Shown here: positions 34,583 to 41,050 of the stretch, one piece after another
Layout of the letters: the number at the start of each line of letters is the position of its first letter
Position numbering within the stretch: position 1 is the first letter of the stretch
DNA from: a virus
Lineage: Duplodnaviria; Caudoviricetes
Strand: one strand, 5' to 3'
IMG/VR virus record: IMGVR_UViG_3300033067_002106
Coordinates: 1-64,000 of that record
DNA length: 64,000 nt
Program-made: the position numbers and the translations under genes
Notes under the pieces: generated by a model
Told to the model about the DNA's origin: nothing
What the model saw: only the letters and a program-made list of their open reading frames with translations
Database searches by the model: none

Positions 34583-34936
34583 GGGGGATTTACGGTATTG
34601 ACTAGGTATAGTCGTAAATTGTAAGCATGTGGTGCTAAATGGATGCACCATAATCTGTCTATTAAAACACAAACGACAACGATTTTATCGTTTCAGAAAA
34701 TTTCCTTGATGAAGCTGTTTACAGCTTCGCTGGAGAGCTTGCTGTAGCCTAATATAGCGATGGTGGTAAACCACCAAAAACATCTTTTTAGAGTGAGGAT
34801 GTAAAAGAAACTCTGGGTTCATTTGGTTTCCAACATTAAAACCAAAATATTTAGAAGGATTAGAAAATCCTGTTCTAAACATGTAGAAAGCTTTTGAAGA
34901 ATACTTAACACAGCGGTTCGATTCCGCTATCCTCCA
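34583..34936 (+). ncRNA. ssrA: tmRNA
   Basis: 5' GGGGGAT...TTGAC and 3' GCGG-TTCGATT-CCGC-TATCCTCC-A with G3:U70; tag ORF 34669-34752 TNDNDFIVSENFLDEAVYSFAGELAVA*; CCA not encoded. Confidence 0.9.
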
Positions 34937-34983
34937 CGTTACTTTTTTGTACCTAGCACATATTTATATAGAAATGTATAGAT

Positions 34984-36851: not shown

Positions 36852-37532
36852 ATGAAAAAGAACATTACCCTAGAAATCAGAGATGCTGAAGGTGGCTCTG
36901 ATGCAAAACTTCTGGTCTGTGATATGAGAGACATCTATATCAGAGCAGCAAAGAATAACGACTTCAACTGAAGGGTTCTCGAAGAACGAGATGGGTTTGT
37001 CAATATCTGACTCTCAGGCCCAAATGTCGAAAAATTTTATCAAAACGAAATAGGTTCTCACAGGTGGCAAAGAGTTCCACCAACCGAAAAACGTGGTAGG
37101 GTTCATACCAGTACCATTACCGTTGCATTGCTTGAACTTACCAATTATCAAAATATTGAGGTACCACAAAATGAACTTAAGGTTGAAACAACCAGAGGTA
37201 CAGGTAATGGTGGACAACATAAAAATTCTACTGATTCGTGTGTTGTAATGACCCATATACCAACAGGTATAAAGGTTGTGAGAGATGGTAGAAGTCAACT
37301 TACAAATAGGGAAGATGCATATAAAGAGATAAATCGTAGAGTAAATGAATATTATCGTACTGGTCAAATGTGTGAAGAATCTGAAATTCGAAAAGAACAA
37401 ATCGGTGACGGTGCTAGAAGTGATAAACGAAGAACCTATCGTGTTAGGGATGGAATAGTCGTAGACCACATTACAAATAAAATTGCAACAATAAAAGAAA
37501 TTTTAAAGGGTAAGATTAATTTATTGTCATAA
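36852..37532 (+). CDS. RF1-like peptide chain release factor (lacks domain 1) with two in-frame TGA codons
   Basis: Continuous frame MKKNITLEIRDAEGG...FN*RV...NI*LSG...QRVPPTEKRGRVHTST...GGQH; TGA at 36969-36971 and 37008-37010. Confidence 0.85.
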
Positions 37533-38497: not shown

Positions 38498-38568
38498 GGC
38501 TCGGTGGTGTAACGACAACATTTAGGACTCTAAATCCGAAAGATAAGGGTTTGAATCCCTTTCGAGTC
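38498..38568 (+). tRNA. Amber suppressor tRNA(CTA), Gln-like body
   Basis: Cloverleaf; loop CT-CTA-AA (anticodon 38530-38532); own TATCTTTG promoter at 38480; one mismatch in anticodon stem. Confidence 0.75.
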
Positions 38569-38582
38569 TCAAAACCTTGAAA

Positions 38583-38774
38583 ATGAATATAAAAGAAGCG
38601 AAAAGTAAACTTTGGGAAGAATTAAAGGTGAGTGATTTTGTTGTTGGAATATCCTGCGATGAGACAAAAATCGTGGTACATCTTTTAAACGGCAAATCAA
38701 AAAAATTGATACCCAAAGATTATGAGGGGCATAAGGTTACGACTAAAGTAACAGGTAGGATAACGCTTCAATAA
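38583..38774 (+). CDS. Hypothetical protein
   Basis: Short ORF. Confidence 0.55.
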   Translation: MNIKEAKSKLWEELKVSDFVVGISCDETKIVVHLLNGKSKKLIPKDYEGHKVTTKVTGRITLQ

Positions 38775-38824
38775 ATTGATTTTTTTTAAACTTGTAATAT
38801 ATTTATTATTATAAAACAACACAG

Positions 38825-38911
38825 ATGACACACTAGATTTCTAACAACGAAAAGTTACGTATTGTAACAAGAAGGGATATCCCCCTACAGTATGCGGCAG
38901 TACAAGCTGGC
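38825..38911 (+). pseudogene. 5' fragment of a PTH2 gene (MTH*ISNNEKLRIVTRRDIPLQYAAVQAG)
   Basis: Clearly homologous to the start of the intact copy at 39630, including TAG at codon 4. Confidence 0.8.
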
Positions 38912-38941
38912 CTTTTCGATTTCTCTCCATATTTATATTAT

Positions 38942-39625
38942 ATGAAAAGACCAAATGTTAGAAAAACAACCGAGAAGTTTATTCAAGAATGTCAAAAAAT
39001 TCACAAAAAATACGACTATTCATTAGTTGAGTACGTTACAAATAAAACTCCTGTCAAAATTATTTGTAACATACATGGTGTATTTAGCCAAATTCCATCC
39101 CATCATTTAAAAGGTTCTGGGTGTCCAAAGTGTGCCAATGACGTTAAATCAATAGAGTTCTTCATTGAGAAATCAAAATTGATTCATGGTAATTATTACG
39201 ATTATTCAAAAGTAGAATTTAAAAACACGAATAATAAAGTAATTATTGTCTGCCCCAAACACGGTGATTTTAGTCAACAACCAAAACATCATTATAATGG
39301 TGCTGGGTGCCCATATTGTAAGCAATCTAAAGGTGAAAGGGACATAATAAAATATCTTAAGGAAAACAATATAAAATTTATTTCACAAAAGAGATTTAAT
39401 GATTGTAGAGATAAAAAACCATTACCGTTTGATTTTTATCTACCAGAATTAAATATTTGTATTGAATTTGATGGTGAACAACATTTTAAAAGTAAATCAG
39501 TTTTTGGTGGTGACAAAGAATTTGAGAATAGGGTCAGACGTGATGTAATAAAAACCAATTATTGTGATAAAACTGGAATTAAATTAATAAGAATTAAAAA
39601 TAACGAAACAATTAATCTAAAATAA
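38942..39625 (+). CDS. Putative homing endonuclease (DUF723-like Zn repeats + Vsr/DUF559-like nuclease)
   Basis: Two YDYS...IICxxHG...HxxGxGCPxC repeats; FDFYLP...IEFDGEQH. Confidence 0.8.
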   Translation: MKRPNVRKTTEKFIQECQKIHKKYDYSLVEYVTNKTPVKIICNIHGVFSQIPSHHLKGSGCPKCANDVKSIEFFIEKSKLIHGNYYDYSKVEFKNTNNKVIIVCPKHGDFSQQPKHHYNGAGCPYCKQSKGERDIIKYLKENNIKFISQKRFNDCRDKKPLPFDFYLPELNICIEFDGEQHFKSKSVFGGDKEFENRVRRDVIKTNYCDKTGIKLIRIKNNETINLK

Positions 39626-39629
39626 AACT

Positions 39630-39986
39630 ATGACACATTAGGTATCAACAACAGAAAAACTAAGGGTGGTTACCAGACGTGACCTATCATTTGGTGCGCA
39701 ATCAATTCAATGCGGTCATGCCGCCATCGATTTTCAACACCAGCATCCAGAATTAGCCAAACTTTGGCACTCCCATTCAAATTATTTAGCGTATTTAACC
39801 GTCAAGGACGAACAAGAGCTTATTGACTTAATCGTCAAAGCAACCTTGCGTGGTATCAAATACACAATCTTCAGGGAGCCTGATATCAATAATCAAATTA
39901 CAGCGGTGGCCTTTGAGCCAACAAGTGCTAGTCGTAAGTTAACTAGTTCATTACCACTTCTGGGAAAGGAGGTAAGCTATGCTTAA
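39630..39986 (+). CDS. pth2: Peptidyl-tRNA hydrolase 2 family protein with in-frame TAG at codon 4
   Basis: ATG ACA CAT TAG GTA...KLRVVTRRDL...IQCGHAA...FREPDINNQITAVA. Confidence 0.8.
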
Positions 39987-40239
39987 CATCAACGAAAGAA
40001 CTGAGATAATCTTCCATTTCAATAAGAAGTATTTGGAAGATAATACCATCCCCATGTGGATTATCAAAGCCAAGGGTGAGACATACTATGTTCACCACGT
40101 GGATATGGAAAGCGGTGTTGGATTTTCAACCAAAGAAACACCAGATAATCCCCATACCAAGGGTTCAATCAAATTTAAGGGTAAATTAAGTATTCATCCA
40201 AATGAACATGGAGAATTGATAGCAACAATTTCACCTTAA
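39979..40239 (+). CDS. Hypothetical protein
   Basis: 86-aa ORF overlapping PTH2 end. Confidence 0.65.
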   Translation: MLNINERTEIIFHFNKKYLEDNTIPMWIIKAKGETYYVHHVDMESGVGFSTKETPDNPHTKGSIKFKGKLSIHPNEHGELIATISP

Positions 40240-40245
40240 TGAGAA

Positions 40246-40316
40246 GGTCAAGTGGCCGAGTGATAAGGCATGGTTCCGCAAGGACCAGTACGGTGGTTTG
40301 AATCCATCCTTGACCT
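40246..40316 (+). tRNA. tRNA-Cys(GCA), atypical C33
   Basis: GGTCAAG/CTTGACC acceptor, U73, loop CCGCAAG. Confidence 0.6.
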
Positions 40317-40321
40317 CACTA

Positions 40322-40348: not shown

Positions 40349-40385
40349 AATTTGACGTTTTATCATTTTCATGATATTTATTAAT

Positions 40386-40970
40386 ATGGAAAAAGAATTA
40401 TTAAAAAAATATATTGATGAGGGTCTCTCAATAAGAAAAATTGCTGAAAAATTAAGTTGTTCAGCAACAACAATTAGGTATTATTTAAACAAATTTGATT
40501 TGGTAAGCAAATGGCATCAGCCAAATAAATTTAATGTTGAAGTAATTAGAAAATTATGTGAAGAAAAAATTAGTATTTCTGAAATTTTACGTGAATTAAA
40601 TTTACATGTTAGCAACACTAATTTTTTATCTATAAAGAGATTTGCAAAAAAAAATAATATTATATTGCCTAAAAATGGAAATAAAAGCGGAAATAAACGA
40701 TTTCCAAAAAGAACGAATAGTGAAATTTTTTGTGTAAATAGTCCCGTTAGTAGGGGGGTGGTAAGAAAACGATTATTAGAAGAAGGTCGAGGTGAAAAAT
40801 GTGAATTATGTACACAAGGTATTGAATGGAACGGAAGAAAAATATCTATGATATTAGACCATATTAATGGGGTTCCAGACGATAATAGACGTGAAAATTT
40901 AAGATTTATATGCCCAAATTGCGACTCAACATTAGACACATTTTGTGGGCGAAATAAAAGATATAAATAA
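40386..40970 (+). CDS. HNH homing endonuclease with N-terminal HTH
   Basis: CELC...LDHING...NRRENLRFICPNCDS. Confidence 0.85.
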   Translation: MEKELLKKYIDEGLSIRKIAEKLSCSATTIRYYLNKFDLVSKWHQPNKFNVEVIRKLCEEKISISEILRELNLHVSNTNFLSIKRFAKKNNIILPKNGNKSGNKRFPKRTNSEIFCVNSPVSRGVVRKRLLEEGRGEKCELCTQGIEWNGRKISMILDHINGVPDDNRRENLRFICPNCDSTLDTFCGRNKRYK

Positions 40971-40971
40971 T

Positions 40972-41042
40972 GTGGGTGTAGCTTAAAGGTAAAGCGATGG
41001 TCTCTAAAACCATTGTTGACAGTTCGATTCTGTTCATCCATA
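40972..41042 (+). tRNA. Amber suppressor tRNA(CTA), Trp-like body
   Basis: ATGGT-CTCTAAA-ACCAT anticodon arm, canonical D and T arms. Confidence 0.8.
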
Positions 41043-41050
41043 CAGATACT

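What the first reader, a model, noticed from the sequence alone, without database searches (positions are those of the whole stretch)
38825..39986. PTH2 gene starts with a conserved Met-Thr-His-amber minigene
Seen: both the intact PTH2 (ATG ACA CAT TAG, 39630) and the diverged 5' fragment (ATG ACA CAC TAG, 38825) keep TAG at codon 4 while neighbouring codons differ. Homology continues in frame after the stop (xSxxEKLRxVTRRD). Established: PTH recycles peptidyl-tRNA from drop-off, which minigenes promote. Inference: expression needs amber read-through, so it would rise with the two phage amber suppressors and fall when the RF1-like factor is made, forming a stop-codon logic circuit.
Basis: partly seen in the sequence, partly recalled or inferred. 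Interest (0 to 1): 0.85.

Follow-up and report, generated by a model that had tools for sequence, protein, structure and literature searches.

The report
Amber-gated phage PTH2-like gene
A large wastewater phage that uses the normal genetic code keeps a UAG stop as the fourth codon of a small peptidyl-tRNA-hydrolase-like gene. It sits next to the phage's own UAG-reading tRNAs, so the enzyme is probably made only when those tRNAs override the stop.

Summary
ATG ACA CAT TAG opens the intact PTH2-like gene at 39630, and ATG ACA CAC TAG opens a diverged 5' fragment at 38825. An independent activated-sludge assembly has both TAGs.

Across IMG/VR I collected 83 unique homologous gene starts, forming 20 clusters at 60% identity.
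- 82 have an in-frame TAG 0-8 codons before the conserved K-L...R-R-D-L strand. The TAG follows ATG plus 0-6 variable codons.
- The single TAA case sits beside a tRNA-UUA instead of a tRNA-CUA.
- None has a canonical start between the stop and the invariant Lys.
- The base after TAG is never T.
- A tRNA-CUA lies within 4 kb in 66 of 79 loci.

This genome and a complete 368-kb relative are not TAG-recoded.

Only TAG is conserved, not Met-Thr-His. The 5' fragment is a remnant left by a homing endonuclease, which recurs at this site in at least five other lineages.

Best reading (0.62): translation starts at the leader ATG and needs suppressor-tRNA read-through. Nothing is experimental. The RF1-like antagonist and the minigene drop-off link are untested.

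This scan has found the same cassette before on other DNA. I found no paper describing it.

The parts
38498..38570 (+). tRNA with CUA anticodon (amber suppressor 1); atypical D and anticodon arms
   Evidence: ARAGORN; Rfam tRNA 46.9 bits against a cut-off of 29. In close relatives the tRNA-CUA ends about 40-190 nt upstream of the PTH2 leader ATG.
38799..38806 (+). ATATTTAT promoter-like motif, 18 nt before the fragment's ATG
   Evidence: The motif occurs 22 times on the + strand and 5 times on the - strand of the window. It also precedes the tmRNA and the HEG ATG. Related TATATTTATA strings precede the leader ATG in relatives. Promoter function is inferred.
38825..38911 (+). Diverged 5' fragment of a PTH2-like gene: ATG ACA CAC TAG (TAG at 38834-38836), then 25 homologous codons ending at ..A-V-Q-A-G
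   Evidence: It is open in frame into the HEG ORF.
38942..39625 (+). Homing endonuclease ORF (zinc-finger repeats plus a PD-(D/E)XK-like C-terminal domain), in frame with the fragment
   Evidence: PHROG 559 E 2.5e-63 and PHROG 9084 'homing endonuclease' E 1.5e-29; Pfam DUF723 and DUF4379 above their cut-offs, with sub-cut-off PvuRts1I-like_N and DUF559 matches over the C-terminal part. Homologues sit at the same PTH2 site in L129/130, L126, L121/122, L186 and L004/080.
39630..39641 (+). Leader of the intact gene: ATG ACA CAT TAG (TAG at 39639-39641), followed by G
39630..39986 (+). Intact PTH2-like gene, 118 codons including the TAG, ending in TAA
   Evidence: Pfam PF01981 37.4 bits against a cut-off of 23. 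AlphaFold model pLDDT 92.8; best fold matches are Pth2/Bit1 structures with TM 0.72-0.80.
39979..40239 (+). Conserved 86-aa ORF of unknown function. Its ATG overlaps the PTH2 stop and its GGAGG lies inside the last PTH2 codons.
   Evidence: tblastn gave 56 alignments among the fetched loci, which include duplicate fetches of the same contigs. No Pfam, PHROG or Atlas match.
40972..41043 (+). tRNA with CUA anticodon (amber suppressor 2), canonical cloverleaf, unrelated in sequence to suppressor 1
   Evidence: ARAGORN; Rfam tRNA 66.7 bits; alignment.
36852..37532 (+). RF1-like ORF lacking domain 1, with PPT and GGQ motifs and two in-frame TGA codons (codons 40 and 53). Context only; a proposed antagonist of the gate.
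34583..34937 (+). Phage tmRNA (context: ribosome-rescue genes clustered with the cassette)
   Evidence: ARAGORN; Rfam RF00023 66.4 bits.

Best explanation
Ribosomes start at the leader ATG (39630). After two sense codons they meet UAG in a weak-termination, good-suppression context. They go on into the PTH2-like frame only when a phage tRNA-CUA decodes that UAG. The enzyme is therefore made in proportion to amber-suppressor activity relative to RF1 activity.

The inserted residue lies in a disordered N-terminal tail six residues before strand beta-1, so its identity need not matter.

A tRNA-CUA plus a TAG-led PTH2-like gene is a conserved two-part cassette of large phages that otherwise use the standard code.

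In this window a homing endonuclease has entered the gene at its most conserved motif. It left the old TAG-led 5' end as a fragment and carried in a complete TAG-led copy.

Shown: the anatomy, the conservation, the linkage, the standard code and the PTH2 fold. Inferred: that read-through happens, that the tRNAs are charged, and why the enzyme is coupled to suppression. My guess for the coupling is that the enzyme clears peptidyl-tRNA or rescue by-products of read-through, alongside the phage tmRNA.
For: 1. In 83 unique homologous starts (20 clusters at 60% identity, 33 at 70%), 82 have in-frame TAG and 1 has TAA. Each follows ATG plus 0-6 variable codons and lies 0-8 codons before the invariant K-L.
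2. 0 of 83 have ATG, GTG or TTG between the stop and the invariant Lys. In many, the first canonical start is 20-100 codons in, or absent. In the window, GTG 39666 lies inside beta-1, downstream of the invariant K6 and L7.
3. A tRNA-CUA lies within 4 kb in 66 of 79 loci, usually about 40-190 nt upstream of the leader ATG in close relatives. The complete 368-kb relative G001 has exactly one suppressor tRNA, and it sits directly upstream of this gene.
4. The only TAA-led member (L053/L158) has a tRNA-UUA and no tRNA-CUA within 5 kb.
5. The base after TAG is A in 65, G in 17, C in 1 and T in 0. At genuine TAG stops of G000 and G001, T follows in 15 of 46 (Fisher p = 3e-8). From memory, a purine after UAG favours suppression (Bossi 1983).
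6. The codon after TAG is not a possible start in about a quarter of cases (GTA, GTT, AGC, AAC, AAA, ACA, CTT, GGC).
7. Three otherwise intact homologues carry one extra internal stop. All three are TAG; none is TAA or TGA.
8. The genome is not recoded. Reading TAG as sense gains no more ORF cover than reading TGA as sense, and TAG-joined ORF pairs are not enriched.
9. TAG is kept in every 5' fragment left by mobile-element insertions, even where the fragment's leader differs from that of the full copy.
Against: - There is no experimental evidence of any kind. tRNA expression, charging and the inserted residue are all unknown, and the suppressor tRNAs are very diverse with no assignable isoacceptor origin.
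- 71% of the codons after TAG are AUU, AUA or AUC, which are weak near-cognate start codons.
- In cluster C mycobacteriophages the arrangement is [A/G]TG TAG GTG, with a Shine-Dalgarno sequence well placed for the GTG. There the gene may start after the TAG.
- 13 of 79 loci show no tRNA-CUA within the fetched flank.
- Some distant homologues are ungated: L181, L201, L211, L212, the XacN1 ORF364 fusion and the Lak phages.
- The stop-anticodon covariation rests on one contig, whose gene also carries one frameshift.
- TAG still ends 8-11% of the phage's own long ORFs, so strong suppression would have a cost.
Confidence: 0.62

Rival explanations
1. Start-stop mini-ORF with re-initiation. The 2-8 codon ORF ending in TAG recruits ribosomes. 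After RF1-dependent termination they restart at the very next codon (AUU, AUA, AUC or GUG). The suppressor tRNA is not needed, and the TAG is conserved as the coupling signal.
For: - 59 of 83 codons after TAG are ATT, ATA or ATC.
- Mycobacteriophages have [A/G]TG TAG GTG, where GTG is the annotated start with a well-spaced SD.
- In the INNQ clade the ten codons after TAG are conserved even at synonymous sites (0.05 against 0.3-0.45), as an initiation region might be.
Against: - 24 of 83 following codons are not start codons (GTA, GTT, AGC, AAC, AAA, ACA, CTT, GGC).
- The model does not explain why the stop must be TAG rather than the far commoner TAA, the physical linkage to tRNA-CUA, the TAA/tRNA-UUA pair, or the tolerance of extra internal TAGs.
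- Ile and Val alternate through different codons, which suggests the residue is translated as such.
Confidence: 0.15
2. The leader acts mainly as a bar-like minigene. Ribosomes stall or drop off at the early UAG, producing fMet-X-tRNA. The element senses or loads the peptidyl-tRNA pool, and PTH2 synthesis responds to that rather than simply to the suppressor level.
For: - Leaders have 1-7 sense codons, and 2 in 50 of 83.
- From memory, very short ORFs are known to promote peptidyl-tRNA drop-off (lambda bar minigenes).
- The downstream gene is a peptidyl-tRNA-hydrolase homologue.
Against: - No feature found here links drop-off to downstream translation.
- The leader's last sense codon is not conserved (K, T, H, Y, N, S), and bar-type toxicity is codon-specific.
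- There is no conserved RNA structure around the leader (mean z about 0).
- The idea is compatible with read-through rather than a replacement for it.
Confidence: 0.1
3. TAG is simply a sense codon because the phage uses a TAG-reassigned code (code 15), so the gene is ordinary.
For: Suppressor tRNA-CUA genes are present. Lak phages, which are TAG-recoded, have a homologue.
Against: - ORFs of 100 aa or more cover 79.4% of G000 and 78.0% of G001 under the standard code. Reading TAG as sense adds no more than reading TGA as sense.
- TAG-joined ORF pairs number 5 against 5 for TGA in G000, and 11 against 18 in G001.
- Other early TAGs in the window are followed at once by normal starts.
- A sense codon would alternate with its synonyms among 83 homologues. 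It never does.
Confidence: 0.02

Closest known systems
Stop-codon-recoded phages with phage-encoded suppressor tRNAs (TAG read as Gln, 'code 15'; crAss-like, Lak and others; Borges et al. preprint 10.1101/2021.08.26.457843)
   Same: A phage tRNA-CUA overrides UAG. In-frame stops are proposed to hold back translation of certain genes until the suppressor is made. A release-factor gene accompanies the tRNA.
   Different: Here the genome keeps the standard code. The gate is one codon in one small gene, always at the very start and never replaced by a sense codon. The gated gene is a translation-quality enzyme beside the tRNA, not a late structural or lysis gene. The accompanying factor is RF1-like, whereas the TAG-recoded phages in that preprint carry RF2.
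prfB (RF2) autoregulation through an early in-frame UGA
   Same: An early in-frame stop in a translation-factor gene makes its synthesis report on termination efficiency at that stop.
   Different: The stop in prfB is passed by a +1 frameshift and is read by the gene's own product. Here the frame is unchanged, passage would be by a dedicated tRNA, and the product is not a release factor.
Lambda bar minigenes and other 2-3 codon minigenes (from memory)
   Same: An ATG, one to a few codons, then a stop; and a functional link to peptidyl-tRNA hydrolase.
   Different: bar minigenes stand alone and are toxic when Pth is limiting. Here the minigene is fused in frame to a hydrolase-like gene and the stop is always UAG.
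PTH2 of jumbo phages as catalogued by Iyer et al. 2021 (PMC7824862)
   Same: The same protein family in large phages, proposed to hydrolyse peptidyl-tRNA during ribosome rescue.
   Different: That survey does not mention the leading TAG or the linkage to suppressor tRNAs. The XacN1 paper (PMC5852040) states that no targets of its two CUA suppressors could be found.
Free-standing homing endonucleases of T4-like phages that invade conserved genes
   Same: An HEG family ORF with presence/absence polymorphism at one site in the most conserved coding motif of the target.
   Different: The insertion leaves a 5' duplicate of the target in frame with the HEG and restores a complete gene downstream. 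There is no intron, intein or split gene.

Membership tests
PTH2 peptidyl-tRNA hydrolase (Pfam PF01981) | Profile match above the curated cut-off | tested here: met
   37.4 bits against a cut-off of 23; residues 10-110 match profile positions 2-114 of 115. A PDB profile search hits archaeal Pth2 at E about 3e-8.
PTH2 peptidyl-tRNA hydrolase (Pfam PF01981) | PTH2 alpha/beta fold | tested here: met
   AlphaFold model pLDDT 92.8, pTM 0.86. The top 13 Foldseek PDB hits are all Pth2/Bit1 family structures. TM is 0.72-0.80 for the crystal structures, including 3erj at TM 0.80 and rmsd 2.0, and 0.58 for the NMR model 1rzw.
PTH2 peptidyl-tRNA hydrolase (Pfam PF01981) | Equivalog-level similarity to archaeal Pth2 (NCBIfam TIGR00283 / NF003314) | tested here: not met
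   29 bits against a cut-off of 82, and 25 bits against a cut-off of 126. It is a distant, phage-specific branch. Only 7 hits appear in 185,579 species genomes, all on MAG contigs that look like binned phage.
PTH2 peptidyl-tRNA hydrolase (Pfam PF01981) | Catalytic residues of archaeal Pth2 (Lys in the G-K motif, Asp, Thr; recalled from memory of the S. solfataricus work) | tested here: inconclusive
   In the HMMER alignment to 1rzw and 2zv3, the G-K lysine column is variable in the phage family. The Asp column aligns with an invariant Glu in F-x-E-P-D. The His of H-A-A is kept. No structural superposition of side chains was made.
PTH2 peptidyl-tRNA hydrolase (Pfam PF01981) | Hydrolysis of peptidyl-tRNA | not testable with these tools
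   Needs an enzyme assay.
TAG-reassigned (code 15) phage | Many genes across the genome interrupted by in-frame TAG; low coding density under the standard code | tested here: not met
   on G000 (82.8 kb) and the complete G001 (368.5 kb).
TAG-reassigned (code 15) phage | Phage-encoded tRNA with CUA anticodon | tested here: met
   Two in the window; present in 66 of 79 related loci.
prfB-type autoregulatory in-frame stop | The stop is recognised by the gene's own product and is bypassed by a +1 frameshift | tested here: not met
   Homology continues in the same frame directly after TAG, and the product is a hydrolase homologue, not a release factor.
bar-type minigene | A free-standing ORF of 2-3 codons that causes peptidyl-tRNA drop-off | tested here: inconclusive
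   The length fits: the leader has 2 sense codons in 50 of 83. But it is fused in frame to a gene, and drop-off cannot be tested here.
Free-standing homing endonuclease | HEG family match plus presence/absence at one conserved target site among relatives | tested here: met
   PHROG 559 E 2.5e-63 and PHROG 9084 'homing endonuclease'. The same site (after ..Q-A-V-Q-x or ..T-P-G-Y-Q) is occupied in the window, L129/130, L126, L121/122, L186 and L044, and by other ORFs in L200 and L202. It is empty in most relatives. Cleavage activity is not testable.

The most novel reading that the evidence does not exclude
The tRNA-CUA, the UAG-led PTH2-like gene and the UGA-interrupted RF1-like gene form a self-contained three-node stop-codon circuit of standard-code jumbo phages.
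- The hydrolase-like enzyme is made only while UAG is being read through.
- It then acts on the products of that read-through, or on the suppressor tRNA itself, holding suppression at a set point.
- The RF1-like factor is itself released by UGA read-through and closes the gate.

Mobile endonucleases that invade the gene may inherit the same gate through their in-frame fusion to the TAG-led fragment.
Probability: 0.15. Interest if true: 0.9.

Novelty: new variant of a known kind. Interest (0 to 1): 0.72.

Why it matters
Many large phages with the standard code carry 'orphan' amber-suppressor tRNAs with no known target. The XacN1 authors said so explicitly (PMC5852040).

A strictly conserved, single-codon UAG gate on the neighbouring PTH2-like gene gives those tRNAs a concrete natural target. 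It would also be a natural translational switch built from a tRNA and one codon.

It suggests that stop-codon read-through in phages is used well short of whole-genome recoding. That may represent a precursor state of recoding, or a way to couple ribosome-rescue capacity to read-through load.

There is a practical side too. Gene callers truncate or miss this gene, and mycobacteriophage records annotate the start just after the TAG.

The system can be tested with a simple reporter and in cultured cluster C mycobacteriophages.

Tried and rejected
- **Whole-genome TAG recoding:** rejected.
- **Other TAG-led genes in the window:** all early TAGs elsewhere are followed at once by normal starts. A scan of G000 and G001 for the same layout gave a few unverified candidates and no clear excess over TAA or TGA.
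- **Conserved RNA structure around the leader:** none. Mean folding z is about 0 over 40 sequences.
- **Amino acid inserted at UAG:** not resolved.
  - The suppressor tRNAs are highly diverse. Most have discriminator A and no assignable isoacceptor parent.
  - Internal TAGs fall in E, E/D and T/K columns, which only reflects one-step mutations.
- **More TAA- or TGA-led members:**
  - Two pattern scans of IMG/VR (TAAA.., TAAG..) found no further case.
  - The covariation therefore stays at one contig.
- **XacN1:** its PTH2-like domain is the C-terminal part of ORF364 and has no TAG leader.
- **Tenacibaculum phage PTm1:** no match with the profile.
- **Distant DNA search of the gene against phage records:** nothing useful.
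- **Sequencing runs:**
  - The DNA occurs in wastewater, sludge and river samples of 8 studies.
  - RNA libraries are held only as contigs, and the laid RNA run (X2) covered almost none of the stretch, so nothing about transcription can be said.
  - Only X11 gave usable cover.
- **ESM Atlas:** no usable hit for the 86-aa ORF, and the machine was busy for the PTH2-like protein.

Full report
**What is there**

The window is part of an 82.8-kb fragment of a large phage (CheckV completeness 23%) with 34% G+C. One search shows ATG ACA CAC TAG at 38825 and ATG ACA CAT TAG at 39630.

Read through, the second gives a 118-codon protein that matches Pfam PTH2 above its cut-off (37.4 bits against 23). 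The first gives 29 codons of a diverged PTH2-like N-terminus. That fragment then runs on, in the same frame, into a 227-aa homing endonuclease (HEG) ORF.

Two tRNA genes with CUA anticodons flank the region, at 38498-38570 and 40972-41043. Both pass the Rfam tRNA model.

Upstream lie a tmRNA (34583-34937) and an RF1-like ORF (36852-37532). Contigs from an independent activated-sludge run are identical over both TAGs.

**Is the TAG conserved?**

Yes, almost without exception. Two scans of IMG/VR with the protein and with a 20-member alignment, plus pattern scans, gave 83 unique leader-plus-ORF sequences. They form 20 clusters at 60% identity and 33 at 70%.
- 82 carry an in-frame TAG and one carries TAA.
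- The stop lies 0-8 codons upstream of the invariant K-L that opens the first beta strand.
- It follows ATG plus 0-6 variable codons. Leaders include MK, MT, MTH, MN, MKN, MKDT, MKKPFYY, MEHT and MS.
What is conserved is ATG, a short spacer and TAG.
- None of the 83 has ATG, GTG or TTG between the stop and the invariant Lys. In many the first canonical start is tens of codons inside the domain, or absent.

In the window, GTG 39666 is the third residue of strand beta-1 in a confident model (pLDDT 92.8). It lies downstream of the invariant K6 and L7, so it is not a credible start.

**Is TAG just a sense codon here?**

No.
- ORFs of 100 aa or more cover 79% of this genome and 78% of a complete 368.5-kb relative (G001) under the standard code.
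- Reading TAG as sense adds no more than reading TGA as sense.
- ORF pairs joined by a single TAG are not enriched.
- Other early TAGs in the window are followed at once by normal starts.
- G001 has exactly one suppressor tRNA, and it lies directly upstream of this gene.

**Evidence that the stop is read by the suppressor**

1. Linkage. A tRNA-CUA lies within 4 kb in 66 of 79 loci. In close relatives it ends about 40-190 nt before the leader ATG.
2. Covariation. The one TAA-led gene (L053/L158) has a tRNA-UUA and no tRNA-CUA within 5 kb. Its single frameshift leaves 55 conserved codons open in the new frame, so it looks like an assembly slip and not decay. This is one case only.
3. Context. 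The base after TAG is A in 65, G in 17, C in 1 and T in 0. Genuine TAG terminators of G000 and G001 are followed by T in 15 of 46 (Fisher p = 3e-8).
4. The following codon. It is not a possible initiator in 24 of 83 cases: GTA, GTT, AGC, AAC, AAA, ACA, CTT or GGC.
5. Extra stops. Three otherwise intact homologues (L049, L123, L162) carry one additional internal stop. All three are TAG, although TAA should be the commoner nonsense mutation in these A+T-rich genes.
6. Position. The TAG sits in the disordered tail six residues before beta-1, where any residue should be tolerated. That fits the great diversity of the suppressor tRNAs.

**Points against**

- Nothing is experimental.
- ATT, ATA or ATC follow the TAG in 71% of cases. 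In one clade the ten codons after TAG are conserved even at synonymous sites (0.05 against 0.3-0.45), which would also suit an initiation region.
- In cluster C mycobacteriophages (Catera, JustHall, Myrna, ScoobyDoobyDoo) the arrangement is [A/G]TG TAG GTG. A Shine-Dalgarno sequence lies 7 nt before the GTG that annotators use, and a tRNA-CUA lies about 130-300 nt downstream. There the gene could start after the TAG.
- Some distant homologues are ungated.

I therefore put read-through gating at 0.62 and mini-ORF re-initiation at 0.15.

**The 5' fragment**

It is a by-product of a homing endonuclease.
- HEGs of the same family occupy the same site in L129/130, L126, L121/122, L186 and L044. Other ORFs occupy it in L200 and L202.
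- The layout is always the same: a TAG-led 5' fragment ending after ..Q-A-V-Q-x or ..T-P-G-Y-Q, which is the most conserved coding motif of the gene.
- The mobile ORF follows in the same frame, and then a complete TAG-led gene.
- The promoter-like ATATTTAT motif precedes the fragment, not the full copy. So the fragment marks the original gene start.
- The fragment and the full copy come from different alleles: 9 of the 14 codons with the same residue differ, and the leaders differ in L129 and L126.
- This makes the retained TAGs informative but not fully independent. I cannot tell whether the in-frame fusion means that the HEG shares the gate. Each HEG also has its own Met just after an ATATTTAT-like string.

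**What the protein is**

It has the PTH2 fold. The best fold matches are human Bit1 and archaeal Pth2, with TM 0.72-0.80. It is nevertheless a distant branch:
- NCBIfam equivalog cut-offs are not reached.
- The lysine of the archaeal G-K motif is not conserved.
- In 185,579 species genomes it appears on only 7 MAG contigs that look like binned phage.

Its substrate is unknown, so 'PTH2-like' is the safe name.

The RF1-like ORF is best matched by prfA (195 bits, aligned to positions 103-333 of 347). It has PPT and GGQ motifs and lacks domain 1.

It contains two in-frame TGA codons. They are conserved in at least ten relatives and are replaced by Cys codons in others. That it lowers read-through at the PTH2 leader is possible but untested.

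**Literature and earlier scan notes**

Iyer et al. 2021 list PTH2 in jumbo phages without noting the gate. The XacN1 paper reports that no targets of its CUA suppressors could be found. Work on recoded phages proposes that in-frame stops regulate late genes. Seven full-text searches found no description of an amber-led PTH2.

This scan has reported the same cassette several times on other genomes. Those notes are unchecked AI notes and were read only after my own reading was formed.

New here:
- the HEG hot spot with TAG-led fragments;
- the base-after-TAG statistics;
- the internal-TAG tally;
- the TAA/tRNA-UUA pair;
- the conserved TGA/Cys columns of the RF1-like gene.

Noticed in passing
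window 36852-37532; L005, L006, L009, L016, L017, L019, L055, L092, L095, L101 against L069, L087, L091: The RF1-like ORF (PPT and GGQ motifs, no domain 1) has two in-frame TGA codons at codons 40 and 53. They are conserved in at least ten relatives. In other relatives both columns are Cys codons. No tRNA-UCA exists in the 82.8-kb record.
   Followed up: partly
window 40246-40317; L002:3690-3762; L014:3598-3667; L020:3592-3661; L026:2512-2584: A Cys-type tRNA (discriminator U, 3-bp D stem) sits just after the PTH2-orf86 pair. At the same place some relatives have a similar tRNA body with a 6- or 8-nt anticodon loop that ARAGORN cannot name.
   Followed up: partly
window 38825-39625; L129:2977-3990; L126, L122, L186, L200, L202, L044: The conserved Q-A-V-Q / H-A-A coding motif of the PTH2-like gene is a hot spot for mobile ORFs. 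Each insertion keeps a TAG-led 5' fragment in frame with the inserted ORF and restores a whole gene downstream.
   Followed up: partly
window 39979-40239: An 86-aa ORF of unknown function overlaps the PTH2 stop by 8 nt, and its GGAGG lies inside the last PTH2 codons. tblastn gave 56 alignments among the fetched loci, which include duplicate fetches. No family match.
   Followed up: partly
window 34515, 38799, 38929, 40374, 47265 and 17 other + strand sites: ATATTTAT occurs 22 times on the + strand and 5 times on the - strand. It sits shortly before the tmRNA, the PTH2 fragment, the HEG ATG and a tRNA array, so it is a likely phage promoter element.
   Followed up: no
L008, L009, L010, L012, L017, L019, L101, L103 (first 10 codons of the PTH2-like gene): Synonymous differences are almost absent in the ten codons after the TAG (0.05 against 0.3-0.45 in the rest of the gene), while leader codon 2 varies freely (T, K, N).
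   Followed up: partly
window 40371-40970 and 40972-41043: A second mobile-type ORF (HTH plus an HNH motif) ends one base before the second tRNA-CUA. Relatives of it lie near the PTH2 cassette in other loci.
   Followed up: no
window 38577-38774: A 65-aa ORF with no relative in any fetched locus lies between tRNA-CUA 1 and the PTH2 promoter-like motif. Close relatives have only about 40-190 nt there.
   Followed up: no
L168 (Lak-B5), L169 (Lak-A1): The Lak megaphage homologues show no stop in the 20 codons before the domain and have a tRNA-UUA about 0.7 kb upstream, although Lak phages are described as TAG-recoded.
   Followed up: no
window 34583-34937: A phage tmRNA with a 25-residue tag ending in ..ELAVA. 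The complete relative G001 shows no tmRNA with ARAGORN.
   Followed up: no
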